Source: an uncultured Bacteroidaceae bacterium
GTDB lineage: Bacteria; Bacillota; Clostridia; Christensenellales; CAG-917
Direction: 5' to 3'
Length of the DNA: 64,000 nucleotides
NCBI GenBank assembly: GCA_964563025.1
Contig: CAZLVK010000003.1
Coordinates: 84,061-148,060 of the forward strand
How positions within the stretch are numbered: the stretch's first letter is position 1; each line of letters starts with the position of its first letter. Positions 29,601-41,702 of this stretch are shown in pieces. Under the pieces are notes generated by a model that was given only the letters and a program-made list of their open reading frames with translations, searched no databases and was not told where the DNA came from. A program made the translations under genes and the position numbers.

Positions 29601-32600
29601 GAATACGTGCCGTTATACGACCAAGTATCCGCATCGGAGTTTTCCGCGTTTTCGAGTGCGATAACGTTCGAGCCCCAGACTGCGCCCACGATACCGCCGA
29701 TATAGTTTTGTCCGCTGATATTCGACAAATTTCGCGCTATTTCGGGAGCGAATTTGGTTATGTTCGTCGAAGACGTATCGGTATCCTTGCCGATTGCGCC
29801 CACGATACCGCCGACGTATTCGCTATCCGTGTTTGTCGAAATCGTGGCGTAGTTGACGAGTTTCAGCACCTTGTCGCCGTTGTTGCCGACGACGTACGTG
29901 CTACCGCCCGCGTCGTAGCCCGCGCCTTGCTCGATTGCGCCGATGAACCCGCCGACGTAGTTCGCACCCGCAACGGTGAGGTATGAAGAACTGCTGATAT
30001 TGCCGTATAGTTCACTGCCCTTGCCGAGATAGCCGACTATCGAGCCGACGTAATCATTTCCGCCAACGGTGTATGCTGTTGTGCCCGATGCGTTCACGTA
30101 GCAAGAGTCGATGACTGCGTTATTTGCGTATCCGACGACACCGCCGACGTAGTCTCCGCCACCCGAATTGACGTTGCCGAGCACCGCGATATTCTTGACG
30201 CCCGCCTTGCTACTATTGCCGTAGACGTAACCGAACAAGCCCAAGAAATGGCGGTTTGTTCCGTCTGCATAATTGAGGTGGTCGCCTATCGTGATACTTC
30301 TGGTAGTCGTCGAAATGTCGCTTTCGATATTACCGCCGAAGTAACTGACTGAGGTGCTCTTCGGAGAGGTTGCGGAAGTCACGCCTTGGTTATACGACGT
30401 CGCACTGCCTATCGCATACCCGCCGATCGGGTTGAAGATTATGCCGTCGGGTATCGCTATATCCGCCGTCACCACGAAGTAACAGCCGTCGTAGAAAATC
30501 GTCTTTGCGTTGGTATCTGCGCTCGTGAGTTTCGAGTAGTTCTTGACCGAGTCAATCGGTTGCATAGTGCCGTTGACTATGTCGCTGAGTCTTTGGAGAT
30601 AAATCCAGTTGCTGATGACGAACGGATTGCTTTCGCTACCCCAGGTCTTATCCCTCGTCTTTCCGTCGAGGACGCCGAAATCCGAGTCGATGAGCGTGTA
30701 GTAGAGAGTGACTTCACCGGTGAAGTTTCCGCTACCCTCGAATTTCGTCCATTGTTTTTTCTGCAATCTGTCCACAAGGACGCCGTCCGAAGTGGCGGGC
30801 GTGGAGTGCGTGACGGTAATCGTAGCATAAGTGTAGCCGGAACCGTACATATAAGCATTGCTGACGTTTGTCAAATAGCCGTTTGCATCTCTCGCCTTTC
30901 TATCGCTGACGATATAGAATTTCGTCTTATATCCGCTCCAAGTGTTGCTATCGTATTCTATAACGCCGATTTCGGTATTATCCTTAAACGATGTGATATT
31001 GTAAAGGAAACTATACTTTGACATTCCGTATGCAGATCCGCTGTATCCGTAGACCGCATCCGACGAAGATATGTCGTAAGGCTGTATCGTCACGCCTTGA
31101 TTGTTGAGTTTTTGACCGAAAATTTGACTGCTTGCTTTGATTTCGACCTTATACTTAAATCCGCCGGTGCTGACGTTTACGTCGTCACCGCTTGTTGTCG
31201 TGAAAACAGCAGAGTACCCGGTTATATTCCCATTCCAATTATAATACTTGATTTTGCTTTCGTGTTCATATATAAGGTTCACATTGTCGGTGCCGTTATT
31301 GTATGTGATATTTTCTATCGCAGCGAAACGCACGTCGATATTGCCCGCAAAATCGGATTTATATTTGATTTTGCCGAACGTCACCGAGCCGTCAGAGTTG
31401 GCGGTAGTATTCTCCAAAGAATTCGGAGTCGCATAAGCACCGAGCGACAGAGTACCCGAAATCACGTTGCTTGCCTTACGTAAAGACAAGTAGTTGCCGT
31501 TTTCCGTCTTTACACCGCTCGCTATATAGAAACCGTTTATATCCTTAGTTTTGATATTATCCCACGAAGAACAATCCGTAAACGTACTTCCGCTCACCGT
31601 GCAGGGATAGACCTTTTGACTAATATTCGAGTATATAAGCACGTATTTGCCCGTCGAGGCTGTTGTACCGGTATTGTGATCGGTGTAGACCGAGCCGTAG
31701 TAGAACGCCCAACTGTCCGTCGTCGTGCCCGCCGTCGTGCCGACAATACCGCCGACGTTAGAGCCACTGGTTGCTTCAATTTTGCTCGAACTGTCTATCT
31801 CGACGTAGCAATTCGTGATAGTGTTTCCACTGCCCCCGCCGACTATACCGCCGACGTATTGGTAGCCGGAAATTACACTCTTATTGTAGCAATACGTGAA
31901 CGCAACGTTATTTGCGGAACCGATTATACCGCCCGTGTAGTTTCCATAGGCGGTGACCTTCCCCGTATTCACAAGGTGTGCGAAAGTCCCTCTGGTCGTA
32001 GCATTGCCCACAAAACCGCCCGTGTAGTCACCGTTGCTACGCTCACCGGTGTTTGTGTTGTAACTTCCGCCCGTAATGACACCGGTGTTGACGTTTGAAC
32101 CGGTAAACACAACTTCCGTGCCTTCGCCTATGAAACCGCCTACGCGATTGCCCGTGCCGACTATCGTGCCGGAGTTAGTGCAATTATTGAACGTGGTCTT
32201 TTGGGTTGCATACCCGACGAAACCGCCGACATAACTACCCCATGCACTGATTGACTTTGTATAGGTCAGTCCGCTGAAAGTGAACTCTACCGCACTGTGA
32301 CCGATATAACCGCCGATTTGGCTGTAACCGTAAATGTTGGAATCTGCATAAATACCCGACACGTCCGCGCTCGAATTGTAGCCGATGACGCCACCGGTGT
32401 AATTTGCACGATATAAGTTCCCGCCGATAGTGGTAACGCCCGAACGACAATTCTTAATCGTGCCGGTATTGTAGCCGACGACACCGCCGACGTAACCGCC
32501 GTTTACGACGTTGAATATGCTACCTGTGCTAATAATATTTATATCTGCTTTTCCTATAAGCGTACCGCTATTATATCCGACGACACCGCCGAGCATACCG

Positions 32601-35600
32601 ATACTCTTATATTCCGTGCCGTTTATGGTGACGTCTTGTGCGGTTCTGCCGATGATATTTGAGGTGATAGGAGTGGTCGAGCAATTCGAGAAATCGAGCG
32701 TAACGTCTATATTTGCGCCGACCGCACCGCCGAGAACAACGCCGGTATCGCGAGTACTGCCCGCTATATTGCCTTCGTTAGCGTCGAGTTCGCCGGCGAC
32801 GAGAGTGCCGTCACTGAACGTAATCGTCGCGCCACCCGTCGTATAGCCGAAAATACCACCGCCGAATGCACCGATATGCGAAACGACTTCTTTATTGTCG
32901 TAATGCCAAACCTCTTTATCATCTTGATAGTCTTGCGTGTAATATGTATCATCGTACATATAGCCAACCTTGAAAATACCGGTGAGGTTTTTGCCGTTGG
33001 TGTCGAGTTGCCCGGCGATACCGCCTACGTAACTGCTACCCGCGACCGTGCCGTAATGTTCGAGAGTGACGTTGGTTGTGTCCGCATTGAGCGTCCACTT
33101 GCCGACGATACCGCCGATATAGTCGTTACCGCTGACGATTGCGGTATTGCGCAGATTTGCCCCGCTTGCGATAGCGTTTTGTACATTGCTGATTTCACCG
33201 ACAATACCGCCAACGTAGTCGTGACCGATTATTCTGCCCGAGTTGTTGCCGTTTATGGTTCCGTATTCGATTCTTCCTGCTATACCGCCCGTATAATTAT
33301 AGCCCGTGACGGCGCCCGTGTTTGAAGTAGTGCTCGGGAGAGTGCTGCCGTACAAAAAACCTGCAATGCCACCGACGTAAGATACATTTTCGGCAGAGAT
33401 TTCTCCTTCGTTCGATACGGTTCCGCCGTTGATTTTGGTATCTTGCGAGAAGCCAAAAATACCGCCCGCGTAATTGCCCGAGCCGTTTGCGGTGATTTTC
33501 CCCGTATTCTTGACGGAAGTGGTGCTTGTGTCAAAGATGACTTGACCTTTGATAGTGGTTGTTGTCTTGCCATCAACTGTAGTAGTATATTTATAGACCG
33601 CCGAATAGCCGATGATACCGCCGACTTGATAACTGCCGGTGACTGCACTTTGGTTTTCTACGGTGCCGGTGAAGTTTGCAAAGCAAAGGTAGCCCGCCAC
33701 ACCGCCGACCGAATGACCTGTTGCGGAGATAGTGCCTTTGTTTGTGACGGTATTGAACGAAATTGTAGTAGCCCAAGAAGAGTTTGTGTCGTCGGAATAT
33801 CCGGTTGCGTAGCCGACGAAACCGCCGACGTAGTTCACGCCCTCGACGGAACCGCTGTTCGTGCAATTCGAGAACGAAAGTGTGTCGTCCGCAGTCGCGC
33901 TCTTGAAGTAGCCGACGTAACCGCCTGCGTAATCACCCGTAGCCTTAACGGCAGCGGAGTGGTTGTTGCTCGTGCTGAACGACTTCGTCGTATATCCGAA
34001 ATATCCGCCGACGTAACTCACGCCGTAAACCGCGGAATGGACGTATGCTCCCGTAACGGTGCCTACGTTATATCCCGCAATACCGCCCGTATAATTCTCC
34101 CAATAATTTGAGGTGCCGACCTGAATGCTGGTTTCGCAATTTTTTATTGTTCCGGCGCTCGCGTTGTAGCCGACGATACCGCCGACGTAGTCTCCGCGCG
34201 TGCCTTTGAATTTGAGTATAACCGAGAAAAATTCCGGTTTGACGTCATATATCGTTACCAAATCGACGCCACTTTTGCCTGTGATAGTACCGGCGTTGTA
34301 TCCGACGACACCACCAAGCATTGCGACGTTTGAAAATGTGGTGTCACCGATTGTTTGCGTTCTGGAAATTCTACTAATTATGCTTATATTGAGAGGCGTG
34401 GTCGAGCAATTCGAGAAATCGAGCGTAACGCCTATATTTGCGCCGACCGCACCGCCGACAAAGTTACCCGTATCTTTTCCTATACTTTCACATGCGTCTA
34501 TTTGTCCCGTAACGATGGTGCCGTTCTCGAACGTAATCTTCGCACCACCCGTCGTATAGCCGAAAATACCGCCGGCAAACGAGCCCGTGTGCGCAACTAT
34601 TTCTTGACTATTATTCCCAGAACTGTCGAGAGCCGTGTAATTCGTTCCGCCGTACGTCGTGCCGACCTTGAAAGTGCCGGTGAGGTTTTTGCCGTTGGTG
34701 TTGAGGTTGCCGACTATTCCGCCGACGTAACTGACACCCGCGACCGTTCCGTAATGTTCGAGAGTGCCGGCTGTGGTATCCGCATCGAGTGTCCAGTTGC
34801 CGACGACACCGCCTACGTTTTCACTATAGAGGAAGTCAAACTCTGAAAATTGGAGTTTACCGCTACCATGAGTGCCGTTGTCTATATAGACATAATAATA
34901 TATATAATCGTAAGTTTTATCGAGGTTATAATTTTTCCTATAATAATTGGTTGAACCAAGCCCTATATCTTCGCTTGAATAAATCTTCGTCCACTTGTAC
35001 CCGTCAGTATTATAATCTTCTTTGTCGGGGTATTCGTAGTTACCGCCACCCGTTGGATACGTAGTTTTGAAATTGTTTGTATAAGCGCCCCAAATGTATA
35101 TGCGTTTAGGCATACGGTTGGTTTGGGAAGCCGTATCGTTAGCGTTCGTTATGCTGAAACCGCTGATTAGCGTACCCGACGCGACTTGCATTACGAAACT
35201 CATCGAGCCTTTTTCTTCGGAGTAATACTTCGTCCCTGTGCTTCCGTCGTTGATTTTATCGATAGTCTGATCCGAGTACCCGTAGGCGTCGTATTGAACA
35301 ATAGAATAATCCTTGTCCCCACCATAAGTCGCAGAGCCGATAACGGAGCCGGTGTTTCTTGCGTTTATAACCGAGCCTTTCGCCATATAACCGACGATAC
35401 CGCCGACGTTTATACCGCCGTTGATCGTCCCGCTGTTTTCGCAAGCCGACGTGTTCCCTATCGTAAGAGTTGAGTAACTGAACCCGACAAGACCGCCTAT
35501 GCCCCTCTGTCCCGTTATAGCACCGCTGTTGCTACTGCCGTTTATCGTGACCGTACTTGTCGCATTTGCGTATCCGACAAGACCACCTACGCACGAACGA

Positions 35601-37396
35601 GTATTGCCAGAGCTATCCGTAGTAATGCTTGTGCCCGTGACGGTTGCTTCGTTTCTGCAACCCGAAATGGTGAGTGTTGCGCCATCCGCAAAACCTACGA
35701 GACCGCCGACCTGAATGCCCGCGGTGACTGAACCTTTGGTGGTGCAATTCGTAATCGTGACCGTACCCGAGACGTGCCCAGCGAGCACTGCGTGGGAGTT
35801 TGTCGAAGTCCCCGAGCAAGTGCCGTTGACTGTGAGGTCGTATATATTAGCCCCGCTGCCGAGGTTTCCGAACAACCCCGAATATTTCTGATCGGGAATG
35901 ACCAACCCGCTGATTGTACAGCCGTTGCCATTTATCGACCCTTTGAATTGACTTAATTCTGTGCCTATGGGTGTGAACGACGGACCAATGAAATCCAACT
36001 CAGCCATTTGGATTGTACTTCCGCTATTACACTCTGCGGTAATATTAAAATATCGATAGCAACCTAAATTCGATAGCGTGCCGGTGAAATATTGACTGCT
36101 TGACTTATCGTATTCGTCGGGCAGTGAGGTCGTAAGCGTAACCCAATTTATATTGTCGTTTGAGCCTTTTATCGTGATGCTTTTGAATCTACGGTCATTG
36201 TATTTTGATTCTGTATCGGCACCGTTGTATAGTCGGTACTTTCGGACCGATATTGCGTAGCCGTAGTCTATCTTGACGTCCAGTTTGCCATTCGTACTCT
36301 GGCAATACTTTGTGCTTATGTCTCCGTCAAATAACTTAGCAATTTCTTCACCCGAATTACCTTCGGTTGCGACAGATAAAACCTCTGCTTCTTTCATGCT
36401 ATAGATTCTATCCGAATCATCGCTTAGCATATCGATTGTGCGCCCGCCGGCTGAATATGCGGTTTGTCCGTTAGCCGAATTAGGTTCTACGATATAATAC
36501 GCCGAAACAAAGTCTGAATCTCCGCGATTTACCTTGTCCGAGAATAAATCGAAGTCCGAACGATTGCGGAGTTTATACGGATCTGCTTCCGTTCCGCTTC
36601 CCGGCAAAGAATACGTGCCCTCTATAGAGATTGAAATATCTCTGACTTGTGCAAGGTGTCTTACCTTGTTCTGGTATGAGCCCGATTTCCTTGTAAAACT
36701 ACCGGTAAGTCTAATCTGAATACTTCCACTGCTGTCAACCGTAGCTGTAAGAGAATTTGAACCCGAACTTGTTTCTTTCTTGTCTCTGTTTCCGTACTCA
36801 CTTGCCTTAACCGAAGCGACATTCACAGACGATGAACCGGCTATTACCGAAAGAGTTGCCGTTGATGTGTGTGTCTTATTGTTAGAACTATTACTACCTG
36901 CCGTCTTTGCATAAATATAACCGGTACTGACGTTAATTTTCGTAATGGTCAAACCCTCTTCGGGAACGAGCGTCAAATATGAATATCCACTATACGAATA
37001 TTCGGCTTTATCAGCGCTGTTTGCTTCTATACCCGCGCCGTCGCCGTCCAAAATCGTTGTATATTTAATAGTAGGGCTGGATTGATCAGTGCATACGTAA
37101 GTCCAATAGCCTATTGCAGCCTCTTTTGTGCTGTCATCTGTGTTGTCCCAAGTTTCGTCGAGAGAAAAAGTCGTGCCGTCGATGGCGGAGGCAGAAATAA
37201 TGATTTTGTTGCTACTGTCGATGGAGTAGTATTTGCCAGCGGTAGCGTCGGCGGTTTGGGAACCGCTCTCATTGATTACGTCAGTGTAGAGAATTGCGGA
37301 GAGAGTGACTCCGAGGACGAGGGTGAAGAGCAAAGCAAAAACAGCGAGACGAGTCGCTTTGGTGATGAATGAAGTTTTTGCGCTTGCTGATTTCAT
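17633..37396 (-). CDS. Giant surface protein (6,587 aa): N-terminal signal-anchor, GLUG-motif beta-helix arrays, two discoidin-like domains, YDG/MBG-like repeat region
   Basis: One uninterrupted ORF. Very many GG[IVLF][VAIF]G...(N/S)C repeats typical of GLUG-motif beta-helices. Start set at ATG 37396 (MKSASAKTSF, AAGGA RBS) because the first 22 codons of the tracked ORF lie inside an intergenic repeat. Confidence 0.85.
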   Translation of the reverse strand: MKSASAKTSFITKATRLAVFALLFTLVLGVTLSAILYTDVINESGSQTADATAGKYYSIDSSNKIIISASAIDGTTFSLDETWDNTDDSTKEAAIGYWTYVCTDQSSPTIKYTTILDGDGAGIEANSADKAEYSYSGYSYLTLVPEEGLTITKINVSTGYIYAKTAGSNSSNNKTHTSTATLSVIAGSSSVNVASVKASEYGNRDKKETSSGSNSLTATVDSSGSIQIRLTGSFTRKSGSYQNKVRHLAQVRDISISIEGTYSLPGSGTEADPYKLRNRSDFDLFSDKVNRGDSDFVSAYYIVEPNSANGQTAYSAGGRTIDMLSDDSDRIYSMKEAEVLSVATEGNSGEEIAKLFDGDISTKYCQSTNGKLDVKIDYGYAISVRKYRLYNGADTESKYNDRRFKSITIKGSNDNINWVTLTTSLPDEYDKSSSQYFTGTLSNLGCYRYFNITAECNSGSTIQMAELDFIGPSFTPIGTELSQFKGSINGNGCTISGLVIPDQKYSGLFGNLGSGANIYDLTVNGTCSGTSTNSHAVLAGHVSGTVTITNCTTKGSVTAGIQVGGLVGFADGATLTISGCRNEATVTGTSITTDSSGNTRSCVGGLVGYANATSTVTINGSSNSGAITGQRGIGGLVGFSYSTLTIGNTSACENSGTINGGINVGGIVGYMAKGSVINARNTGSVIGSATYGGDKDYSIVQYDAYGYSDQTIDKINDGSTGTKYYSEEKGSMSFVMQVASGTLISGFSITNANDTASQTNRMPKRIYIWGAYTNNFKTTYPTGGGNYEYPDKEDYNTDGYKWTKIYSSEDIGLGSTNYYRKNYNLDKTYDYIYYYVYIDNGTHGSGKLQFSEFDFLYSENVGGVVGNWTLDADTTAGTLEHYGTVAGVSYVGGIVGNLNTNGKNLTGTFKVGTTYGGTNYTALDSSGNNSQEIVAHTGSFAGGIFGYTTGGAKITFENGTIVTGQIDACESIGKDTGNFVGGAVGANIGVTLDFSNCSTTPLNISIISRISRTQTIGDTTFSNVAMLGGVVGYNAGTITGKSGVDLVTIYDVKPEFFSVILKFKGTRGDYVGGIVGYNASAGTIKNCETSIQVGTSNYWENYTGGIAGYNVGTVTGAYVHSAVYGVSYVGGYFGYTTKSFSTSNNHSAAVKATGDYAGGYVGYFKSATADDTLSFSNCTNSGSVEGVNYVGGFVGYATGYSDDTNSSWATTISFNTVTNKGTISATGHSVGGVAGYLCFANFTGTVENQSAVTGSYQVGGIIGYSAVYKYTTTVDGKTTTTIKGQVIFDTSTTSVKNTGKITANGSGNYAGGIFGFSQDTKINGGTVSNEGEISAENVSYVGGIAGFLYGSTLPSTTSNTGAVTGYNYTGGIAGRIEYGTINGNNSGRIIGHDYVGGIVGEISNVQNAIASGANLRNTAIVSGNDYIGGIVGKWTLNADTTNVTLEHYGTVAGSSYVGGIAGQLDTNGKNLTGIFKVGYMYDDTYYTQDYQDDKEVWHYDNKEVVSHIGAFGGGIFGYTTGGATITFSDGTLVAGELDANEGNIAGSTRDTGVVLGGAVGANIDVTLDFSNCSTTPITSNIIGRTAQDVTINGTEYKSIGMLGGVVGYNSGTLIGKADINIISTGSIFNVVNGGYVGGVVGYNTGTIKNCRSGVTTIGGNLYRANYTGGVIGYNSSADVSGIYADSNIYGYSQIGGYIGHSAVEFTFSGLTYTKSISAWGSYVGGFVGYATQKTTFNNCTNSGTIVGTGNRVGGFIGEGTEVVFTGSNVNTGVITGGSYNTNTGERSNGDYTGGFVGNATTRGTFAHLVNTGKVTAYGNYTGGIIGSANNVAFTYCYNKSVISGYQYVGGIVGGGSGNTITNCYVEIDSSSKIEATSGSNVGGIVGTTAGTTTDSWAFYYGSVYTDHNTGTTASTGKYVLIYSNISQKVYPCTVSGSTFTDCSSWDNIKTKDINGFYIASGVKTENGNYLSLRKASNVISGTLSLGAYATPNSLENTTANSDGSVTFGKIKYKSDFAGNIDVRFAAIENITYNNGTDNVNLIYEHESKIKYYNWNGNITGYSAVFTTTSGDDVNVSTGGFKYKVEIKASSQIFGQKLNNQGVTIQPYDISSSDAVYGYSGSAYGMSKYSFLYNITSFKDNTEIGVIEYDSNTWSGYKTKFYIVSDRKARDANGYLTNVSNAYMYGSGYTYATITVTHSTPATSDGVLVDRLQKKQWTKFEGSGNFTGEVTLYYTLIDSDFGVLDGKTRDKTWGSESNPFVISNWIYLQRLSDIVNGTMQPIDSVKNYSKLTSADTNAKTIFYDGCYFVVTADIAIPDGIIFNPIGGYAIGSATSYNQGVTSATSPKSTSVSYFGGNIESDISTTTRSITIGDHLNYADGTNRHFLGLFGYVYGNSSKAGVKNIAVLGNVNSGGGDYVGGVVGYANNAVIDSCYVNASGTTAYTVGGNDYVGSIVGYLGKGSELYGNISSSSYLTVAGANYVGGFIGAIEQGAGYDAGGSTYVVGNNGDKVLKLVNYATISTNTDSEYVGGIVGAIGKDTDTSSTNITKFAPEIARNLSNISGQNYIGGIVGAVWGSNVIALENAENSDADTWSYNGTYSGDDVYTVAGTDNIGGIAGYLGAGNNLFTRVFSTATVSGGSFVGGLVGQVKGGSFVSCFVSEPGTKTVEAGTDKVNANTQYAGGLAGSADGANVSFTDCYVQGFNWSRVSASSGGVAGYASSTVKFENSWALYLADGADYTTVSPNANGKYIIADSNFATSTANIYEMAIFAGLLTSTAQYSAGKTNTSYLGKGIIPLGVTLPTPGTLSDATTKAQIVFYDASGTETATDNKFDAENDSASASMIYIYLGVDAESMSVCARQVVFNNVSDYTSETAWENAYLSLTKPIQNREKQYTADVTLTNTAGPYAGTFKISFIANYTVSGSTVTGTAVFVSRNVSFSYKNNTEVAPLIINDMDDWTSFANAVRGTDGTYTGYVKLTANIGTTSNPVTLPAGYNSTSDVNKFRFGGTFDGNGYTITVRLWASALGSNNEIGLFPQAAGATFKNLTIAGSVGVVKLDENNNPTADASASGNDIGAFVGIARGDLTFLNCKNQAYVSGGLGHNTGGLVGTAHDDNDDDGTAGPLTYNVTFVDCVNEGTVISAGNYGSKGEVSFGVGGIMGTTGSDIGSEVTFESCRNAAAVASDANVGGILGVSANECIIRNCGNTGNIIGTDDTDDTCVGGIAGIGTEAGSLNIYASYNSGQVVAQGNKAGGILGGDSEYTSASGTTCIYYCYNTGSVYTGGLTARTKGGVGVQAGGIIGTMTDVDIQYCYNVGTITANGIVYLGANTQPEARVGGIAGYSSSGAKIKMDYCYNVGLIVIGANLDTTWFNEEKNEADYGAGIIGLITGNFYNSNVTIGDHNFSLKWQVYRPNKSSGTGNKPDGGKSGTNYKNYKWQTYCEYETNYSYSGTILPSIADLTAAYFSGSSERIVPLTANRNYNSCTANDESNSTVTFGATGSAAVMNTKGTKTYGGATTVTATGVNTGIENGSLGGYIYVYGCLPQLACFALDTKNGLAMTSMGYGYDEVNEQYVLQPAGGEHNPYIIKDGIDLMSLTAITQPNPSHYDFDGEYIEFADSTNNLAGDICTYINLPTDENGLANAYKFANNGGTLTEGKSYHIYKYGAVIQRKKNYYETGTNSYTQWKNRNTYYDESSSAFTASTATAPISAVNYYPVGMFGNSADRTFKGTINGSLKTINANNIHQTDWDGTSKAEVRGLKLDRTIGHSADIYAGLFAFIEDATVANIKVSGTITGRAISSGKNVHAGLVGYAMGESVLDGLETASLTIQAINKTGNTRTNAVGGILGVAEPAKEETITIKNCIVGSANVVGDTKIIGFGPNIGGIIGVSSSRTKDEVAADASAQVIVENCNVRSAEVNSDKAVGTLVGGIVGKCDDVGSLTVTGSSVGSIGTTTTSTDNQKVKIYGSYSIGGIAGNAVANANSNMAFIDCTVYGDVLIQRIGTTNDGTFGTAIGGIVGYISNDATAFSLFRGTLGFHGTIDATLASTEKVYNIGGAVGYMGTSAVFDSIDVHIYGKINTPTSGTVENVGGFAGYGAGGTLDGTFFVAPTLSCANANYVGGFIGLNGGNTAITRTSEIYTAKEDGTSGKASTKGGAITGKYYVGGFIGGNTASGDNGLYIGAKEFLGASYGSDGDFAIIELYSSVDGKAYIGGFLGRNEGNLYGEYCQVNNYGQVGASSTGTSSNYVEIIGGIVGSNGGSAKISFGTDATFQNDGQVGNSTYKTAYQKFVGGILGANAGAFANSGTLVNTGSVYGYEYVGGAIGLLISGNISGKLANGVKADGTAFAMDSDALACTDSTTGNASVTAVSNVGGVIGAMLGGASITATTATTELYNYGKVTATADISNAGGIIGLMYGKIEGTSANKVTFANYGEVNANSFAGGIIGVVDGLVNYASFTNYSASMTFGGNTAMGGAIGLITTGYGNDYYPTTTLGESVSSTVPKYADNNQSTHITDSYFAYEPATEGNTVSVTATGTTPDTPYTINNKNYAGGLGGVIGVIDASDIDDKADWSGNSYYVNGSVYGTGVDGVGGFVGAINGAKVIIDNMLVYLSTVSGRYNVGGIVGYNGSSVTDEASIVNCFNVKGEVIGSLKNGKSTYGGIVGYAATYADDSYTYTDGSYWIKESDNNTLNKVDPDNISGTLDAAFNVAGEEDKSGYGTYLDAETTFETVTNTDTEIKTISTTKYGQLYSDDNGTAINANNKAGMSTTLYYKTTTVTTTSTYDSNESEWTTTSSTSYKYTAIIGTPANTLNFSLAYMSAHPDEPSALGYTSWAELATTYNSELVYNSALGYGSYGAAGNIVYTTGDIQHGFFYVYATDVGSIKVDIQGSELAQWNIIANTPVKGEINDSQMTYNSGAIETGHIYTTATVPDGTGYYVYFYGTTPNPGDSDAESDYSALSVHGKTSSGATGTIYFDWDTTQYEKDANGNNTKYGAVGNVLIYYKKTTMESGLVYNGQQRYAPITGMTYNTTSETVDSSAKMNQSYYYFDGTADGSVNTATDAGTYDVKANIWFVDSAGNKITIGSVDSTKNNEYKWTINKRDLVLTDNTNTTVGTYDGTYKHYVEFIVENSVYECINNDDLKNILGLTAENVTVTAVEKSSSMPTVGTNSTTAYYSYKDGESSKDVNDCGYTVLSDGAYGKAESVQTYTYTVRVYFCGAGSHSVGVTTNDSNIGKNYSLAETTLTVQVNRRKLTVTATWSEKNNDGEYEFNGGASYQGVTKITIGGNGTNEGFVGNDAQSVTFTITATAKVGSSTNDKLITVGEMTSQGTSSVYYDIQATDAATYTVTVEAPSSATGAAKNYVVSGAGTFTWTIDKYIISKSGVTLKTTTVTYDGKAHYIDTSAGEGTSSTNTEDVGKETVTFRVNVTYSGDGVSNNVAVNAGNYTATLATDGGGSGTGTVDRLTDCLSKAENRLDNYDIVFTGLTSGTATLTIEPAKINLTSWDVGSYVYLNKEQGPSVTGATVGGETISSGNISYSNGVLTISNIFDNNETVELTATNFRKKDAGDYTAKVTVISSVSGTNATGSDTVVGNYELGTGLTQAYSIAKSKIEFTYTGTVGDKVYDGTSTYSNFGTTSYRVSTTNEGDTSKSAISLSSAVYMNGSTAVSDTNAKTGVNAYTVRFTASLKDTKNYEWASGNTYTTSATAHITPKGLTVTLNDSNGRAYKSFDNNYEYASVESSGATSAKSKSQRTGKGITVSGFVANQASITVTVNFREEDRTNRAGFDEYVNGIFKDGETYKSGGAYNKMLEVALSSSDNSSYLNYYIAYVNRKSGSANVTIGDTYKNTQIYVLCNGSEVTNGSTINSVRAYTSNLTIEITKYTAKANYSNTSQSYANADNTYNTDWVEVSGTLRVPSSWNLDVEVKVANGWMKNSDGTAKEYTKYTRIVGSTTKSDLGATLSSATGKDLCITLRNQPTLIIGYFVVKDGSYQVGSAAGLLIATEYYKGNFKNETDETSGDDEKAYNFVVVPMAVPTDVELDVTTYPTTWEDFLEAYYTKYNESYDITKHSAYPTYQSIAEQYKKDTGLDLEEPAYGDYFIEDEKGNVIEKHGYYYWQPIEVEVPTYTDFVQVNDFDMIVTDLDAQIIKEAFGENWESSGYLTNVILFKVGSVVILSDSVFTGDFNGSYDGAGYTINHLTILATVTSGDTANIGMFAHLGTSDGVENVSTVKSVNLRNANIQVYDTRTSGTLNVGGIVGYNQSVNVLSDCTFHGTITVTSGATVNAGGLVGKDEASVADFTIGETTVSNTPVYGGTVIATITVIASTANVGGIVGLAYTGNTYSGVVSVSEIYVTASTANAGGILGAVNTGSATVTDGYYLQKAIYGVNNGTYVSKSNAYGTAKSYDELYNGSNTNYNNGVMGETANQNGTYDFVSDVQPQASASETADVAPRESMRLADIIDTHVLGYKLSTTNITVDTNKTATAYQKATVSELVGNANGTTDSRIGIAHQQHLSLIYAFNYMNFELKKHIVMYTGYELKSSPEAFIGSMTSNGYFVNVRTATASETTPTPFKYSDESINWITTLDSVTQG
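32110..33130 (-). repeat. Intragenic duplication, copy B (~340 codons)
   Basis: The protein segment NDYIGGIVGKWTLNADTT...TTFNNCTNSGTIVGTGNRVGGFIG is collinear with copy A. A 59-nt stretch (32675-32733) matches 34400-34458 with 1 mismatch. Confidence 0.8.
33800..34820 (-). repeat. Intragenic duplication, copy A (~340 codons)
   Basis: ENVGGVVGNWTLDADTT...LSFSNCTNSGSVEGVNYVGGFVG is collinear with copy B. They also share ccacccgtcgtatagccgaaaatacc (34546-34571 and 32831-32856). Confidence 0.8.
34825..35290 (-). other. Discoidin (F5/8 type C)-like domain 2 inside the giant protein
   Basis: TIDKINDGSTGTKYYSEEKGSMSFVMQVASGTLISGFSITNANDTASQTNRMPKRIYIWGA...LQFSEFDF resembles the carbohydrate-binding discoidin pattern. 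Confidence 0.55.
35985..36400 (-). other. Discoidin (F5/8 type C)-like domain 1 inside the giant protein
   Basis: EIAKLFDGDISTKYCQSTNGKLDVKIDYGYAISVRKYRLYNGADTESKYNDRRFKSITIKGSNDNINWVTL...IQMAELDF. Confidence 0.6.
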
Positions 37397-37417
37397 GATT
37401 TGTCCTTTATCGGTTAT

Positions 37418-37528
37418 CCTTTCCAGGAGATTGCCACGCAACTCCGTTGCTCGCAATGACAATATGAGTTTGTCATTCAGAGGAGTACGTTAGTACGACG
37501 AAGGAATCTCCCGGAAGGGAAACGGCAG
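37418..37528. repeat. Composite hairpin repeat (module Y 37418-37466, module X 37472-37528) inside the giant-gene leader
   Basis: Same modules as 1-111 but in the order Y then X. Stem positions co-vary between copies (attGc/gCaat vs attCc/gGaat; gtAc/gTac vs gtGc/gCac; cCc/gGg vs cGc/gCg). Confidence 0.8.
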
Positions 37529-37583
37529 TCGATTAGTGCACTTATGCGCATACGCTACGCATACACGCGATTATCACACTATC

Positions 37584-37612
37584 ATTTTATAACGAGAATA
37601 TATGTTTGGCAA
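37584..37612 (-). promoter_or_regulatory. Candidate promoter of the giant-adhesin operon
   Basis: On the minus strand: TTGCCA, 17 nt, TAAAAT, then gatag. Its architecture and downstream leader parallel the promoter at 37972-38000. Confidence 0.5.
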
Positions 37613-37623
37613 GTGTTTTCTTT

Positions 37624-37664
37624 GAAAAAAGCGCAAAAAACTATATTTTTCCAAGGGTAAACTC
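37624..37664. repeat. Left arm of ~40-nt inverted repeat in the divergent promoter region
   Basis: gaaaaaagcgcaaaaaactatatttttccaagggtaaactc versus the reverse complement of 37900-37940, caaaaaagtgcaaaaaaccgtattttttcgggggtaattc. Confidence 0.75.
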
Positions 37665-37899
37665 TGTTCCTCGTAGGGTGTTTAAGAATGTAAAAACCTC
37701 AAAAAGCCCGCTTTTTCTGGGGGTAAATCCTTTTTTGCGCGTCGAGGGCGCATAAGCACGCGCAAGAAAAAATTTTCGACGAGGAAAGCAAAATTTCTCT
37801 CGTTCGAGAAGAAAAACGGTGCGCCAGCCAATCGTTCAACGCTGAACTTTACCCCTCGAAAAACATAACTTTTTTCGCACTCCGAAAAAATTATTTTTT

Positions 37900-37940
37900 T
37901 GAATTACCCCCGAAAAAATACGGTTTTTTGCACTTTTTTG
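37900..37940. repeat. Right arm of ~40-nt inverted repeat in the divergent promoter region
   Basis: See 37624-37664. A second, weaker GGGGTAAA-containing pair lies at 37705-37730 and 37844-37882. Confidence 0.75.
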
Positions 37941-37971
37941 AATTTTTTCCGACAAAAATCAAAAAAATCGC

Positions 37972-38000
37972 TTTACACATTAAGTTTTCAATAGTAGAAT
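37972..38000 (+). promoter_or_regulatory. Candidate promoter of the truncated adhesin paralog
   Basis: TTTACA, 17 nt, TAGAAT, then gatag. Preceded by A/T tracts phased at about 10 bp. Confidence 0.55.
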
Positions 38001-38080
38001 GATAGAAGAAAATCGTGTGTGCGTGTATGTGCATATGAGTTGAGTACCAGAGGCACCGCCGAACAGCATAAGGACAGACT

Positions 38081-39874
38081 ATGACAAAACGCAATGCAAA
38101 ACTCAATCTCACTTCCAAAGTGGCACGCGCCACCGTCTTTGCGCTACTTTTTGTCCTCGTCCTCGGCATATGCTTAGTAACCGCTTTTGACGTAGACCTC
38201 GGCGGTTCCGACGTCGCCTATGCCTCAAAAAATGATAATGTCAGTTCTTCAACTTACGGCTCGATTTCATCCGTCAATTCAAACAATCAAATTACCCTCA
38301 ATGACATTGGTAATGATTTTGCTTACAGTTGGTACACTTATACTAGTTTTGGGTGGGGCGCCGGCTTAACAGGAAATGACTCAAAAGACGGCAAGGTGTC
38401 CATTGAACTTACTTGTGACGGTAGCAATAACTATTCAAATTTGACTTATAGCAAACGTTATAATTTTTCAAGCACAGTTCTCTCATACGTCCAACAGGGA
38501 TATTTTGTTTCAGTTAGTATTTCGGCATCTACAAGTGGTGGCGAAGGACAAGATTACGGCATAAAAGCTATTACGACTACGAGCGGAACTTATAATTCCG
38601 TTCAATCAACACAAGGTCATATTGATGTGAGCGCTGCTGGAATCAATACGGCAAAAACAGCAACGCTTTCTACTTCTACAACAGGAATTGAGATTGAATT
38701 TGCAGGTGCCGACAAAAACGATCCAACATTTGTATTTCAAAACGTAGTCTTAACCTTTAATTACGCTCAATACACCGTAGCTTATAATGCAAACGTACCG
38801 GCCGGCGTTTCACTTTCCGCAACGGGTACGACGAGTAATTCGACGCATACAATTTTTACAGCAAAAAATCTCACCAAAAACGGTTACTCTTTGGTCGGTT
38901 ATAAATTCTTGGGTTGGACGAAGACTCAATATACTACGGCACAGAGTTCTCTTCCGAGCGGTGGTTACACCGACCAACAGTCTGTTACCAACCTCACCAC
39001 GACGAACGGCGCGACCGTGACTTTGTATGCGGTGTGGCAACCGTTGTTCGGCTTGATATACCACGAGAACGGCGACAATGACGATACCACCTCTGTCACC
39101 GTCGAGCAGGGCACTTCAATTACACTACTTACGGCGTCAGGCTTGCCGTCAAACTTCACGAAAGCGGGGCACTATTTCGCAGGGTGGGCGGGCTCAGCCT
39201 CGTCAAAGACGAATATAGGTTCTTCGATTACGGCGGGCGCGAACGGCACGCAACGTCATATCTACGCCATTTGGTTGCCCATCTCGTACACTATCACATT
39301 CAACAAGAACGACAGTAGCGCATCGGGCAGTATGTCAAATATGATCGGCACCTATTCGGGTGCGGTAACTCTCACTGCAAACGCTTTCACAAAACAGGAC
39401 TCTTTCTTCAAAAATTGGTATCTTTCCACAAGTTCCGCAACGCTTGCGGATAAAGCAACTATTGCGGCAAGCACCTTTGCGGGATATTTGACCGCCGCGC
39501 AGTCAAGCATTGATACGTCGAGCGTTACACTCTCACTCACCGCACAATGGACTACCGAAACGTTTGAGTTCGGCAAGTCGGCTAAGGGCACGGGGAAATG
39601 GGGCTCCGCAAATAATCCCTATATCATCCGCACGACGACGCATTGGAACAACCTCGCAACTATCATCAATAATAATTGCCCTACGTCGGGGAGCAACGTG
39701 GTCGGTTCAATCGTCGGTTCCTCACTTGCAAGTTACTCCAATCCTATCGCGACCGCAAACAGCGGCTACTACGGCGCAACGTTCCTCATCGAAAACAACT
39801 TGACTTTCAGCGGAACCTACACCACGGTAGGAAACGTAAACTATCAATTCAAAGGGTCGTTTGTTCTGTCATAG
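38081..39874 (+). CDS. Truncated paralog of the giant adhesin: shared N-terminal anchor and domain, Listeria-Bacteroides (Flg_new) repeats, ends at the start of a beta-helix module (597 aa)
   Basis: N-terminus ARATVFALLFVLVLGICL parallels the giant protein. GYKFLGW / GHYFAGW repeat signatures. The ORF stops at YQFKGSFVLS*, inside the F-x-G-x-F-D-G-N-G motif, 20 nt before repeat module Y. It could equally be called a pseudogene. Confidence 0.6.
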   Translation: MTKRNAKLNLTSKVARATVFALLFVLVLGICLVTAFDVDLGGSDVAYASKNDNVSSSTYGSISSVNSNNQITLNDIGNDFAYSWYTYTSFGWGAGLTGNDSKDGKVSIELTCDGSNNYSNLTYSKRYNFSSTVLSYVQQGYFVSVSISASTSGGEGQDYGIKAITTTSGTYNSVQSTQGHIDVSAAGINTAKTATLSTSTTGIEIEFAGADKNDPTFVFQNVVLTFNYAQYTVAYNANVPAGVSLSATGTTSNSTHTIFTAKNLTKNGYSLVGYKFLGWTKTQYTTAQSSLPSGGYTDQQSVTNLTTTNGATVTLYAVWQPLFGLIYHENGDNDDTTSVTVEQGTSITLLTASGLPSNFTKAGHYFAGWAGSASSKTNIGSSITAGANGTQRHIYAIWLPISYTITFNKNDSSASGSMSNMIGTYSGAVTLTANAFTKQDSFFKNWYLSTSSATLADKATIAASTFAGYLTAAQSSIDTSSVTLSLTAQWTTETFEFGKSAKGTGKWGSANNPYIIRTTTHWNNLATIINNNCPTSGSNVVGSIVGSSLASYSNPIATANSGYYGATFLIENNLTFSGTYTTVGNVNYQFKGSFVLS

Positions 39875-39893
39875 TCGCTTACGCAAAATCTAA

Positions 39894-39937
39894 CTGTCAT
39901 TACGAGCAACGAAGTTGCGTGGCAATCTCCGGGAACG
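39894..39937. repeat. Module Y (inverted copy)
   Basis: ctgtcattacgagcaacgaagttgcgtggcaatctccgggaacgg matches 51615-51663 and the reverse complement of 37418-37466. Confidence 0.8.
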
Positions 39938-39956
39938 GCACCGCTGAACCTCCATA

Positions 39957-40030
39957 GGCACTATCACTCCGACAAAGTCGGAATATAACTTTGCGCAAGC
40001 AAAATATCACTTCTCGAAGAGAAATATCAC
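39957..40030 (+). repeat. AATAT[A/C]AC-core hairpin array (locus 2)
   Basis: Cores separated by CCGAC-aaa-GTCGG, TTGC-gcaa-GCAA and TCTC-gaa-GAGA. The array overlaps the stop codon of the TrpB2 ORF. Confidence 0.8.
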
Positions 40031-41370
40031 CGCGACGGCAATGTCACGGTGCCGGCGCACCGTGACATTGCGCCGCTTAACGCCCTCTCGTAGCCTGCAA
40101 GGTCGAAGTAGCCCGTTCCCGTGAGTCCGAATAGGATAACCTTCTTAACGCCCGTTTCTCGACATTTGACGGCTTCGTCCACCGCAATCTTTATGGCGTG
40201 TGCGCTTTCGGGCGCAGGCAATATCCCCTCTACTCTTGCAAACTTAATCGCAGTGTCGAACACTTCGTTCTGTCCCACCCTTCTCACTTCGTCGAGATAG
40301 CCGTCGTGATACAACTTGCTGACGACCGGACTCATTCCGTGATACCTAAGCCCGCCCGCATGGCTTGACGGCGGAATAAATTCGCAACCGAGGGTATACA
40401 TTTTCGCCATCGGCGTAATCTTCCCCGTATCGCAATAGTCGTATCTATATTCCCCTTTGCTCATACTCGGACAACTCTCGGGCTCCACGGCGATGAAATG
40501 CGGATTTGCCGTTCCTTTCAACTTGTCCCGCACGAACGGCGCGATAAGTCCCGCCAAATTACTCCCTCCGCCGGCGCAACCTATGACGACGTCGGGATAC
40601 GTATCGTGTTTCTCCATTGCGATTTTGCACTCCAAACCTATCACTGATTGGTGCAAAGCGACTTGATTTAGCACACTTCCAAGCACGTATCGTGTACTTT
40701 TCGTCGTTGTCGCAAGTTCGACCGCTTCCGAAATCGCGGTGCCCAGAGAACCGCTGTTGTTCGGATTTTCGGCAAGCATTTTGCGTCCGACCGCCGTCGT
40801 ATCGCTCGGAGACGGTATCACGTTTGCGCCGTATACGCGCATAAGGCTTTTGCGTTGCGGTTTGAGTTCATAACTGCACCGCACCATAAACACCGTGAGG
40901 TCGAGCCCGAAATATCCGCACGCCATACTTAGCGCCGTTCCCCATTGTCCCGCGCCCGTTTCCGTCGTCACGCCTTTGAGACCTTGTTCCTTTGCGTAGT
41001 ACGCTTGCGCTATCGCGCTGTTCAGTTTGTGGCTTCCGCTCGTGTTGTTGCCCTCGAATTTGTAATATATCTCCGCAGGCGTAGCGAGTGCCTTTTCAAG
41101 GCAGTACGCACGCACAAGCGGGGACGGACGATACATTTTGTAAAAGTCGCGTATCCCTTTCGGAATTTCGATATAGGCGTCCTCGTCGTTAAGTTCCTGT
41201 TTCGCAAGTTCGGTGCAAAATATCCTTTCAAGGTCCGAGAGCGTCACCGCTTTGCCTGTCGCGGGATTTATCAGCGGTTCACACTTGTCCTTCATATCCG
41301 CCCGCACGTTATACCACTCCTTAGGCATTTCGTTTTCGCTGAGATAAATTTTGTACGGTATTTCTTTCAT
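40027..41370 (-). CDS. trpB: TrpB-like PLP-dependent enzyme (TrpB2 class tryptophan synthase beta)
   Basis: The long N-terminal extension MKEIPYKIYLSENEMPKEWYN is typical of TrpB2. PLP-lysine context NTSGSHKLN. GCAGGGSNLAG loop. The last ~15 codons run through a repeat hairpin. Confidence 0.85.
   Translation of the reverse strand: MKEIPYKIYLSENEMPKEWYNVRADMKDKCEPLINPATGKAVTLSDLERIFCTELAKQELNDEDAYIEIPKGIRDFYKMYRPSPLVRAYCLEKALATPAEIYYKFEGNNTSGSHKLNSAIAQAYYAKEQGLKGVTTETGAGQWGTALSMACGYFGLDLTVFMVRCSYELKPQRKSLMRVYGANVIPSPSDTTAVGRKMLAENPNNSGSLGTAISEAVELATTTKSTRYVLGSVLNQVALHQSVIGLECKIAMEKHDTYPDVVIGCAGGGSNLAGLIAPFVRDKLKGTANPHFIAVEPESCPSMSKGEYRYDYCDTGKITPMAKMYTLGCEFIPPSSHAGGLRYHGMSPVVSKLYHDGYLDEVRRVGQNEVFDTAIKFARVEGILPAPESAHAIKIAVDEAVKCRETGVKKVILFGLTGTGYFDLAGYERALSGAMSRCAGTVTLPSR
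40038..40071. repeat. Perfect 15-bp inverted repeat (4-nt loop) inside the last codons of the TrpB2 ORF
   Basis: gcaatgtcacggtgc cggc gcaccgtgacattgc, read directly. Confidence 0.9.
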
Positions 41371-41696: not shown

Positions 41697-41702
41697 TATT
41701 TC

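What the first reader, a model, noticed from the sequence alone, without database searches (positions are those of the whole stretch)
37397..38330. Head-to-head inverted duplication of promoter, leader and N-terminal domain of the adhesin genes
Seen:
- The two divergent genes have parallel promoters and leaders. Minus strand: TTGCCA-17-TAAAATgatagtgtgataatcgcgtgtatgcgtagcgtatgcgcataag. Plus strand: TTTACA-17-TAGAATgatagaagaaaatcgtgtgtgcgtgtatgtgcatatgag.
- Their RBS regions are similar: ataaaggacaaatcATG vs cataaggacagactATG.
- Both have a ~40-nt upstream arm in inverted orientation (37624-37664 / 37900-37940).
- Their N-terminal helices are homologous: TRLAVFALLFTLVLGVTL vs ARATVFALLFVLVLGICL.
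- Their N-domains share landmarks: SIDSSNKIIISASAIDG / SISSVNSNNQITLNDIGN and YWTYVCT / SWYTYTS.
- The symmetry centre is near 37,780.

Inference: an inverted duplication created two co-regulated adhesin starts, and a shared regulator probably acts on the common upstream elements.
Basis: seen in the sequence. Interest (0 to 1): 0.6.

Follow-up and report, generated by a model that had tools for sequence, protein, structure and literature searches.

The report
Invertible head-swapping cassette on giant adhesin
The mirrored promoters, leaders and signal peptides are real, and they sit at the centre of a 3.9-kb DNA segment that related bacteria carry in the opposite orientation, so that one of two unrelated front ends is joined to a single 6,100-residue surface-protein body.

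Summary
The inverted duplication exists. Promoter plus early leader are 77% identical (z 6.7) and RBS plus the first 36 codons are 71% identical (z 9.1). There is also a 2+2 set of upstream repeat units. Similarity stops after the signal peptide: the mature N-domains are not detectably related (hhalign E 0.12).

The pair is the core of a 3,924-bp cassette (35936-39859). It is bounded by perfect, in-frame 16-bp inverted repeats (TCAATTCAAAGGGTCG, codons QFKGS). One repeat lies at residue 483-487 of the 6,587-aa gene. The other lies four codons before the stop of the 597-aa gene.

Flanks are syntenic in relatives, but the heads change place:
- window: A on body, B on stub
- G001: B on body, A on stub
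- G008: B on body, C on stub
- G004: C on body
- Logan contigs: A or C on stub

Stub-position heads stay intact (dN/dS 0.11-0.24). The repeats co-vary within each genome.

No recombinase lies on the 156-kb contig. An Mpi-family master invertase is encoded elsewhere. It is present in the three genomes with a full cassette and was not found in G004.

Verdict: a gene-altering inversion of unusual topology, with alternative promoter-bearing 5' heads and one constant 3' body.

The parts
17633..35935 (-). Constant body of the giant surface protein (residues 488-6587 plus stop). It is GLUG-like and beta-helix repeat rich, with no C-terminal anchor.
   Evidence: ORF list. Composition, and a single hydrophobic segment that is N-terminal. 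GLUG motif hit just under Pfam's cut-off (20.3 vs 20.5 bits). The body start is 83% identical to G001 and 65% to G008, where it follows head B.
35936..35951 (-). Left outer inverted repeat, TCAATTCAAAGGGTCG read on the minus strand. It covers the last base of the S482 codon and codons Q483-F-K-G-S487 of the giant gene.
   Evidence: Perfect 16-mer, found only twice in the genome even when 2 mismatches are allowed.
35952..37396 (-). Head A: signal peptide or anchor (residues 1-38), a ~225-aa domain of unknown family, a module-start motif and an F5/8 type C (discoidin-like) domain.
   Evidence: Translation. Pfam F5_F8_type_C E 4.6e-6 (27.2 bits, just under the 28.2 cut-off). Relatives P0003 (78%) and G001 A.
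37397..37583 (-). Leader of head A. The first ~45 nt are homologous to the B leader. A pair of REP-like dispersed elements (about 37418-37528) follows, then the RBS.
   Evidence: Alignment. REP family with about 40 copies genome-wide. The REP pair folds at -44.8 kcal/mol, z -3.55.
37584..37612 (-). Promoter of head A (TTGCCA-17-TAAAAT, followed by GATAG).
   Evidence: Homologous to promoter B.
37622..37729 (-). Two upstream repeat units, TTTACCCYnnGAAAAA-n5/6-TTTTTTGC, at 37622-37660 and 37692-37729.
   Evidence: Conserved upstream of the promoters in G001, G008 and G004.
37848..37942 (+). Two upstream repeat units in the opposite orientation, at 37848-37878 and 37901-37942.
37972..38000 (+). 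Promoter of head B (TTTACA-17-TAGAAT, followed by GATAG).
38001..38080 (+). Leader of head B, with an alternating purine-pyrimidine tract and the RBS.
   Evidence: The 5' hairpin is not better than shuffles (z 0.12).
38081..39843 (+). Head B: signal peptide, a ~200-aa domain of unknown family, Listeria-Bacteroides (InlB B) repeats and a module-start motif.
   Evidence: Translation. Pfam Flg_new E 1.8e-8. Residues 1-235 are 65% and 56% identical to the N-termini of 6,287-aa and 6,321-aa open frames in G001 and G008.
39844..39859 (+). Right outer inverted repeat, TCAATTCAAAGGGTCG. It covers the last base of the Y588 codon and codons Q589-F-K-G-S593 of the 597-aa gene.
39860..39874 (+). Four-codon stub (FVLS) and stop codon, which receives whichever head faces this side.
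   Evidence: Equivalent stubs are FVLK* (L044), IIFD* (G008, L082), INSL* (G001) and INLL* (L084).
35936..39859 (.). The whole proposed invertible cassette, 3,924 bp.
   Evidence: Span between the repeats. The opposite arrangement on syntenic flanks is seen in G001, G008 and L044.

Best explanation
The two mirrored gene starts are alternative 'heads' of one giant surface protein.

What each head contains:
- a head-specific domain set
- the in-frame junction sequence TCAATTCAAAGGGTCG (QFKGS) at its end.

Proposed mechanism: inversion of the 3,924-bp segment between the two junction copies (35936-35951 and 39844-39859) exchanges the heads.
- In the window's state, head A (487 aa) is fused to the 6,100-aa body, and head B (593 aa) ends after the four-codon stub FVLS.
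- In the flipped state, B would be fused to the body (6,693 aa) and A would be made as a 491-aa protein.

A second recombination zone, the homologous signal-peptide and leader repeats, can flip or convert only the central promoter region.

Shown:
- the repeats, their frame and their uniqueness in the genome
- exchange of head positions between related genomes with conserved flanks
- purifying selection on heads in the stub position
- co-variation of the repeat pair within genomes.

Inferred:
- the inversion is programmed and recurrent within populations
- it is catalysed in trans, most plausibly by the Mpi-family serine invertase at G000:C1:21400-22086
- it changes what the protein binds or displays.
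For: - The 16-bp repeats are perfect and sit in the same reading frame. They occur only twice in the genome, even allowing 2 mismatches. The flanks are dissimilar on both sides.
- The short gene stops four codons after the repeat, at the point where the giant protein continues into its repeat body.
- Flanks are syntenic in G001, G008 and G004. On one side are the body C-terminus and four downstream genes. On the other are the PALP-family gene and SBP_bac_3.
- Head positions differ between genomes:
  - window: A on body, B on stub
  - G001: B on body. A runs into the repeat at the end of contig C10 and continues, through a 15-nt overlap, into C24, which carries the stub and PALP
  - G008: B on body, C on stub
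  - G004: C on body
  - Logan contigs: L044 has A on stub next to PALP. It is 100% identical to the window across the 31-nt B-stub junction and 90% in the PALP flank. L082/L083 and L084 have C on stub.
- Each of the three head types is therefore seen in both positions.
- Three repeat variants exist, each matched within its own genome: G000 CAATTC x2, G008 CAGTTC x2, G001 CAGTTT x2.
- dN/dS is 0.11-0.24 for all head pairs, including body-attached against stub-attached copies.
- Signal peptides are mosaic: B-type first 13-28 codons sit on A or C heads in L044, P0004/L071, G004 and P0139.
- An Mpi-family master invertase is present (NF009949, 307 bits against a cut-off of 272), in a housekeeping context. 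Orthologues are in G008 (92%) and G001 (86%). None was found in G004, whose partner head is deleted with one deletion endpoint inside the repeat core.
Against:
- All flipped states come from other species-level genomes or from strains about 80-90% identical. Rare evolutionary inversions, or allelic replacement of heads, could give the same pattern.
- A perfect 16-bp inverted repeat within 8 kb is not rare at genome scale. About 4 are expected by chance and roughly 30 are seen. Its weight comes from its position and from the comparisons.
- No recombinase lies on the 156-kb contig.
- The Mpi-like gene also occurs in G002, G005 and G006. G002 and G006 have no divergent partner head; G005's locus was not examined.
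- No obvious dyad symmetry is visible in the repeat.
- Expression of either promoter is untested.
Confidence: 0.7

Rival explanations
1. The locus is a static remnant. An old inverted duplication produced a second adhesin gene that was later truncated. The different arrangements in relatives come from a few rare, unprogrammed rearrangements over evolutionary time, either homologous recombination between the short shared segments or replacement of heads by horizontal exchange. There is no switching within populations.
For: - Only comparisons between genomes are available.
- The repeat is about 140 bp in G001, long enough for RecA-type recombination.
- The pair of heads differs between strains (A|B, C|B, C|A), which needs replacement as well as inversion.
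- No recombinase is adjacent.
- Perfect 16-bp inverted repeats occur by chance at genome scale.
Against: - Stub-side heads keep intact frames of 411-597 aa, with their own promoters, in every genome and contig seen. Their dN/dS is about 0.2.
- The repeat is perfectly matched within each of three genomes although it differs between them.
- The repeat boundary is sharp and sits at the same codons everywhere.
- All three head types occur in both positions, which needs repeated exchange.
- 16 bp is too short for efficient RecA-dependent recombination (established knowledge).
Confidence: 0.2
2. One reading: two independent, co-regulated adhesin genes with duplicated starts, controlled by one regulator that binds the shared upstream units. 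DNA rearrangement plays no part.
For: The promoters, leaders and 2+2 upstream units are duplicated and conserved in relatives.
Against: - The short gene ends four codons after a repeat that it shares with the giant gene.
- Its orthologues in G001 and G008 are N-termini of >6,200-aa open frames.
- Head positions are exchanged between genomes.
- The mature N-domains are unrelated.
Confidence: 0.05
3. The arrangement is an assembly artefact, with MAG contigs joined wrongly at repeats.
For: The window comes from a 71%-complete MAG in 146 contigs. The G001 contigs break inside the repeat.
Against: - The repeat in the window and in G008 is 15-16 bp, shorter than the word lengths assemblers usually use (general knowledge; the assemblers' settings were not checked).
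- An independent Logan assembly reproduces window 37490-40017 at 100%.
- Several independent contigs cross head-stub-PALP junctions.
Confidence: 0.02

Closest known systems
Gene-altering programmed inversions, also called shufflon-like systems or 'partial intergenic invertons' (Milman et al. 2023, PMC9881135; Chanin et al. 2023, bioRxiv 10.1101/2023.03.11.532203)
   Same: Inverted repeats inside two oppositely oriented coding sequences. Inversion re-joins gene parts in frame and yields alternative proteins. One partner is very short in any given state. Some such loci lack a nearby recombinase (PMC9881135, introduction).
   Different: Milman et al. report that such targets keep a single copy of the upstream part and switch between versions of the downstream part. 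Here the downstream part (18.3 kb) is single. Two complete upstream parts, each with its own promoter, leader and signal peptide, are the variable elements. The asymmetry is on the 3' side.
Mpi master invertase system of Bacteroides fragilis (serine recombinase acting in trans on many distant invertible regions). Function recalled from general knowledge; family assignment by NCBIfam NF009949.
   Same: A small serine recombinase of the same NCBIfam equivalog family is encoded far from the cassette, among housekeeping genes. The invertible segment carries promoters.
   Different: The known Mpi targets are short promoter-only segments in a Bacteroidota species. Here the segment is 3.9 kb, its ends lie in coding sequence, and the host is a different lineage. 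Catalysis here is only inferred. The B. fragilis repeat consensus (recalled, not checked against a source) is not visible in TCAATTCAAAGGGTCG.
Phage Mu G segment / P1 C segment / Salmonella Hin (Gin, Cin and Hin serine invertases)
   Same: Inversion between short repeats switches between alternative versions of a binding protein. A serine invertase is the candidate enzyme.
   Different: Those systems have an adjacent invertase gene, a constant 5' part with variable 3' parts, and one promoter outside the segment. Here there is no adjacent invertase, the 3' body is constant, and two promoters lie inside the segment.
Campylobacter fetus sap (S-layer) inversion system (general knowledge)
   Same: Oppositely oriented surface-protein genes with conserved 5' ends flank a promoter-bearing region. 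Recombination within the conserved 5' ends re-assigns promoters. This resembles the inner repeat zone and the mosaic signal peptides seen here.
   Different: C. fetus has one promoter and complete alternative genes. Here there are two promoters, and the variable parts are heads joined to one shared body through a second, outer repeat pair.
Ureaplasma mba / UU172 element (Zimmerman et al. 2011, PMC3047005)
   Same: Site-specific inversions at short repeats in and next to surface-protein genes alternate expression and can generate chimeric genes that involve N-terminal paralogues (abstract).
   Different: From the abstract, inversion there alternates expression between neighbouring genes (UU172 and UU171). 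Here two complete heads alternate on one giant 3' body. Only the abstract and outline were read.

Membership tests
Gene-altering programmed inversion (shufflon-like / partial intergenic inverton) | A pair of inverted repeats lying inside two oppositely oriented coding sequences, so that inversion keeps both reading frames | tested here: met
   Perfect 16-mer at 35936-35951 (-) and 39844-39859 (+). Both copies start at the third base of a codon and encode QFKGS.
Gene-altering programmed inversion (shufflon-like / partial intergenic inverton) | Both orientations are found within a species or within one population | tested here: inconclusive
   Exchanged head positions are seen in other species-level genomes (G001, G008) and in strain-level contigs (L044, about 80-90% nt identity).
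Gene-altering programmed inversion (shufflon-like / partial intergenic inverton) | Single upstream (5') part, with alternative downstream parts that lack their own start (the asymmetry attribute of Milman et al.) | tested here: not met
   Both partners have a promoter, leader, RBS and signal peptide. The single-copy part is the 3' body.
Gene-altering programmed inversion (shufflon-like / partial intergenic inverton) | Site-specific recombinase gene next to the locus (usual, not obligatory) | tested here: not met
   No PF00589 or PF00239 match on the 155,920-bp contig. Neighbouring ORFs give no recombinase domains.
Mpi-type trans-acting invertase regulon | The genome encodes an Mpi-family serine recombinase away from its targets | tested here: met
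   G000:C1:21400-22086 scores 307 bits against NF009949, above the cut-off of 272. Its context is housekeeping genes.
Mpi-type trans-acting invertase regulon | The recombinase actually inverts this segment | not testable with these tools
   Only co-occurrence is available. It is present in G000, G001 and G008, which have a full cassette, and was not found in G004, which has a relic. It is also present in G002, G005 and G006; G002 and G006 lack a partner head and G005's locus was not examined.
Mpi-type trans-acting invertase regulon | Several invertible regions in the genome share a repeat motif | tested here: not met
   A genome-wide scan for inverted repeats found no other pair that shares the TCAATTCAAAGGGTCG core.
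Gin/Cin/Hin-type invertible segments | Adjacent serine invertase; constant 5' part with alternative 3' parts | tested here: not met
   No adjacent invertase. The topology is reversed.
C. fetus sap-type promoter inversion | Oppositely oriented genes with conserved 5' ends flank the promoter region, and recombination occurs within those 5' ends | tested here: inconclusive
   The conserved inverted 5' ends are present. Mosaic 5' ends in L044, L071, G004 and L084 show past exchange. There are two promoters rather than one. No direct inversion was seen.

The most novel reading that the evidence does not exclude
A reduced-genome gut bacterium runs a programmed, nested DNA switch of reversed topology. 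An Mpi-family master invertase, acting in trans, flips a 3.9-kb cassette whose ends lie in codons QFKGS, so that one of two promoter-bearing heads is placed on a single 18-kb adhesin body. The heads are drawn from a population pool of at least three unrelated types (A, B, C). A second, inner inversion between the signal-peptide repeats re-assigns the two promoters. The unused head is still made as a short stand-alone protein. This would be the mirror image of Mu G, shufflon and hsdS-type switches. Inversion-prediction schemes that weight a missing 5' part in one partner, such as the model of Milman et al., would rank it low.
Probability: 0.35. Interest if true: 0.8.

Novelty: new variant of a known kind. 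Interest (0 to 1): 0.62.

Why it matters
- The 19.8-kb gene is about 1% of a 1.5-2 Mb genome. Swapping only a 1.5-1.8 kb head would let the cell change the protein's front end without duplicating 18 kb.
- Head A carries a discoidin-like domain and head B carries InlB-type repeats. The switch may therefore change glycan or host binding, or antigenicity, in a gut commensal.
- The layout is one 3' part with several complete 5' parts. This is the reverse of the rule reported for gene-altering inversions (PMC9881135), so prediction models that weight a missing 5' part in one partner would rank it low.
- It also offers a testable target for an Mpi-family invertase outside Bacteroides.

Tried and rejected
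- BLASTN of the plus-strand arm against the genome did not even recover the minus-strand arm, because it is too diverged. I used my own alignments instead.
- Motif hits on C71, C126 and C17 are unrelated sequence.
- An exact degenerate pattern covering all four possible junctions found nothing in the JGI metagenome contigs.
- The search for related loci in genome contigs returned only InlB-repeat proteins from unrelated taxa.
- The homologue search with the 597-aa protein was swamped by repeat proteins.
- Cluster look-ups gave no organism names.
- Nine contigs carrying the SBP gene all start 384 nt upstream of it, so they do not reach the cassette.
- Rfam found no family for either leader. The only hit is a sub-threshold Gut-1 match outside the cassette.
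- The leader 5' hairpins are no better than shuffles.
- hhalign found no relation among the A, B and C mature domains.
- The giant genes of G002, G006 and G013 have no divergent partner.
- Structure prediction was not attempted, because too few admissible sequences were available for an alignment.
Full report
**1. What is at the coordinates**

The region lies between two divergent ORFs.
- On the minus strand is a giant ORF. Its likely ATG is at 37396 and it runs to 17633, giving 6,587 aa.
- On the plus strand is a 597-aa ORF, 38081-39874.

It scores 34.2. Dinucleotide-preserving shuffles give 9.2 +/- 3.5, so z = 7.1.

Broken into blocks:
- promoter plus early leader: 60/78 identical, z 6.7
- RBS plus first 36 codons: 80/113 identical, z 9.1
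- codons 37-250: not significantly similar, z 2.4.

At protein level BLASTP aligns residues 1-73, with 36% identity and E 4e-6. The signal is in the charged N-terminus and the hydrophobic helix. Profiles of the mature domains show nothing: hhalign gives E 0.12 and probability 0.5%. The duplication therefore covers promoter, leader, RBS and signal peptide, but not the 'N-terminal domain'.

The '40-nt arm' is real: 39 nt, 82% complementary, score 43 against 21.9 +/- 2.5. It is one of four copies of a unit, TTTACCCYnnGAAAAA-n5/6-TTTTTTGC. Two copies face each way. The strictest form of the motif occurs nowhere else in the genome, and a looser core has one other match inside unrelated coding sequence. 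Copies of the unit lie in the same intergenic region, next to the adhesin gene start, in G001, G008 and G004.

The ~105 extra nucleotides in the minus-strand leader are two copies of a dispersed REP-like element that has about 40 copies genome-wide. A third copy follows the stop of the 597-aa gene.

**2. The short gene is a head without a body**

The 597-aa protein ends ...NYQFKGSFVLS*. The giant protein reads ...LSQFKGSINGNGCTISGL... at residues 481-498 and then continues for 6,100 residues.

The DNA at both places is the same 16-mer, TCAATTCAAAGGGTCG.
- It lies in inverted orientation at 35936-35951 on the minus strand and 39844-39859 on the plus strand.
- Both copies are in the same codon phase.
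- The flanks are dissimilar on both sides.
- It occurs only at these two places in the 1.97-Mb assembly, even when two mismatches are allowed.

A caveat: perfect 16-bp inverted repeats within 8 kb are not rare genome-wide. About 4 are expected by chance and about 30 are seen. The repeat matters because of where it lies and because of what follows.

**3. Relatives carry the heads in exchanged positions**

A six-frame search of 40 related genomes showed that residues 1-235 of the 597-aa protein ('head B') match the N-termini of open frames of 6,287 aa (G001, 65% identity) and 6,321 aa (G008, 56%).

Both flanks of the locus are syntenic in G001, G008 and G004.
- On the body side are the body C-terminus and four downstream genes.
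- On the other side are a PALP-family gene and an SBP_bac_3 gene.

Between these flanks the arrangements are as follows.

| Genome or contig | Head on the body | Head on the stub (next to PALP) |
|---|---|---|
| Window (G000) | A | B, stub FVLS* |
| G001 | B | A, stub INSL* |
| G008 | B | C (a third, unrelated head), stub IIFD* |
| G004 | C | none; promoter and leader relic joined to part of the repeat and IIFD* |
| L044 (Logan) | not seen | A (81% nt identity to the window's A), stub FVLK* |
| L082 / L083 (Logan) | not seen | C, stub IIFD* |
| L084 (Logan) | not seen | C, stub INLL* |
| L071 (Logan) | not seen | not seen |

Details behind the table:
- In G001, head A runs off the end of contig C10 inside a ~140-bp repeat. 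It continues through a 15-nt overlap into contig C24, which reads ...GISGSTEYQFKGS-INSL* and then PALP.
- L044 is 100% identical to the window's B-stub junction over 31 nt and 90% identical in the PALP flank.
- L071 is a 2.9-kb contig holding a C|A head pair. Both of its ends stop at the repeat.

All three head types thus occur both on the body and on the stub. G000 and G001 hold the same two heads in swapped positions, which a single inversion between the repeats explains.

**4. Signs that this is maintained rather than decaying**

- Stub-side heads are intact frames of 411-597 aa in every case.
- dN/dS is 0.11-0.24 for all head pairs. These include pairs where one copy is body-attached and the other stub-attached: G008 C against G004 C gives dS 0.38 and dN/dS 0.21; window A against L044 A gives 0.24. 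Some pairs are saturated at synonymous sites.
- The repeat core varies between genomes at two synonymous positions but is identical within each genome: CAATTC twice in G000, CAGTTC twice in G008, CAGTTT twice in G001.
- The right-hand limit of identity is the same everywhere (...GGGTC).
- In G004 the deletion that removed the partner head ends inside the core (...|GGTCGATAATTTTTGACTAA).

**5.

Several heads carry a mosaic start.
- L044 A: MTKRNAKLNLTSK (B-type), then ATRLAVFALLF... (A-type).
- P0004/L071 A: B-type for about 28 residues.
- G004 C and P0139 C: B-type starts.
- At DNA level L044 switches from B-like to A-like within codons 12-29.

Exchange, by inversion of the promoter region or by conversion, therefore also happens between the inverted 5' ends. 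Together with the outer repeats this allows four arrangements.

**6. Enzyme**

No tyrosine or serine recombinase lies on the 155,920-bp contig. Nearby ORFs have no such domains.

Elsewhere, among housekeeping genes, the genome encodes a 228-aa serine recombinase at C1:21400-22086. It passes the NCBIfam equivalog model for the 'master DNA invertase Mpi family' with 307 bits against a cut-off of 272.

Distribution of its orthologues:
- present in G008 (92%) and G001 (86%), the two other genomes with a full two-head cassette
- not found in G004, which is 99% complete and has only the relic
- present at about 71% identity in G002, G005 and G006. The giant genes of G002 and G006 have no partner head; G005's locus was not examined.

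The association is suggestive only.

**7. What it most likely does**

Each head brings its own promoter, RBS and signal peptide, so both are probably expressed. Inversion decides which head carries the 6,100-aa body.
- Head A contains a discoidin-like (F5/8 type C) domain.
- Head B contains InlB-type B repeats.
- Head C matches nothing known.

The only hydrophobic segment of the giant protein is the N-terminal one, and there is no recognisable C-terminal anchor. Whether the head is membrane-proximal (uncleaved anchor) or the free end (cleaved signal) is open.

**8. Relation to what is known**

This is a gene-altering inversion in the sense of Milman et al. 2023 (PMC9881135) and a 'partial intergenic inverton' in the sense of Chanin et al. 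(bioRxiv 10.1101/2023.03.11.532203).

Milman et al. find that such loci keep one upstream part and switch downstream parts, and that one partner lacks its start. Here the reverse holds. I found no description of this reversed layout in the papers searched. That search is limited to open-access text.

Earlier notes of this scan describe several C-terminal 'tip' switches on giant surface proteins of gut bacteria. I treated them as leads only. This case concerns the N-terminal end.

**9. Limits**

- The organism could not be named.
- Promoter activity, the role of the four upstream units and the enzyme are all inferred.

Noticed in passing
window 37418-37528, 39894-39960; about 40 further copies in the genome (e.g. 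C1:182440, C2:96830, C18:2346): A dispersed REP/MITE-like family (TGTCATTGCGAGCAACGGAGTTGCGTGGCAATCTCCTGGAAAGG...) with variant stems. A head-to-head pair sits in the 5' leader of the giant gene, directly before its RBS. The pair folds into a long hairpin (-44.8 kcal/mol, z -3.55). Logan contigs tend to break at these elements.
   Followed up: partly
window 39978-40049 (-): Sub-threshold match to Gut-1 RNA (RF01706): 46 bits against a gathering score of 50, E 3.6e-7. It overlaps the 3' end of the PALP-family gene and the hairpin array behind it. The region is conserved in L044.
   Followed up: no
window 1-64000: Rfam at gathering thresholds finds nothing in the whole 64-kb window. No T-box match reached the threshold.
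   Followed up: partly
G000:C1:21400-22086 (-), outside the window: A stand-alone Mpi-family master DNA invertase gene (NF009949, 307 bits) among housekeeping genes. It is present in 6 of 12 genomes of the genus.
   Followed up: partly
G000:C15:150-216 / 2803-2869; C2:97610-97628 / 99736-99754; C22:3225-3248 / 4672-4695 (outside the window): Other perfect inverted-repeat pairs that could bound invertible segments. One is a 67-bp pair spanning 2.7 kb. One is a 19-bp pair 0.6 kb from a tyrosine recombinase gene (C2:100376). One is a 24-bp pair around a tyrosine recombinase gene on C22.
   Followed up: no
window 38014-38036 and 37540-37570 (-): Both leaders begin with an alternating purine-pyrimidine tract (GTGTGTGCGTGTATGTGCATATG / GCGTGTATGCGTAGCGTATGCGCATA). 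Similar tracts follow the promoters in G008 and G004. As RNA hairpins they are not better than shuffles.
   Followed up: partly
window about 41600 (384 nt upstream of the SBP_bac_3 gene at 41991): Eight of the nine Logan contigs that carry a >=90%-identical SBP gene place its start about 384 nt from one contig end. The interval 41400-41800 has an extreme GC skew (-0.33). Something there stops assemblers.
   Followed up: no
L040 5400-5560 (G004): Relic of the partner head. The promoter and leader are joined directly to the last bases of the repeat and the IIFD* stub, and this genome has no Mpi-like gene. It looks like a locked switch.
   Followed up: partly
L071 about 2560-2620: The A-type head on this Logan contig needs a frameshift to reach the junction. 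This is either a true inactivation or an assembly error.
   Followed up: no
window 15856-17628 (-): Two proteins (306 and 279 aa) without any Pfam match lie directly downstream of the giant gene. They are conserved in that position in G001, G008 and G004 at 65-75% identity.
   Followed up: no
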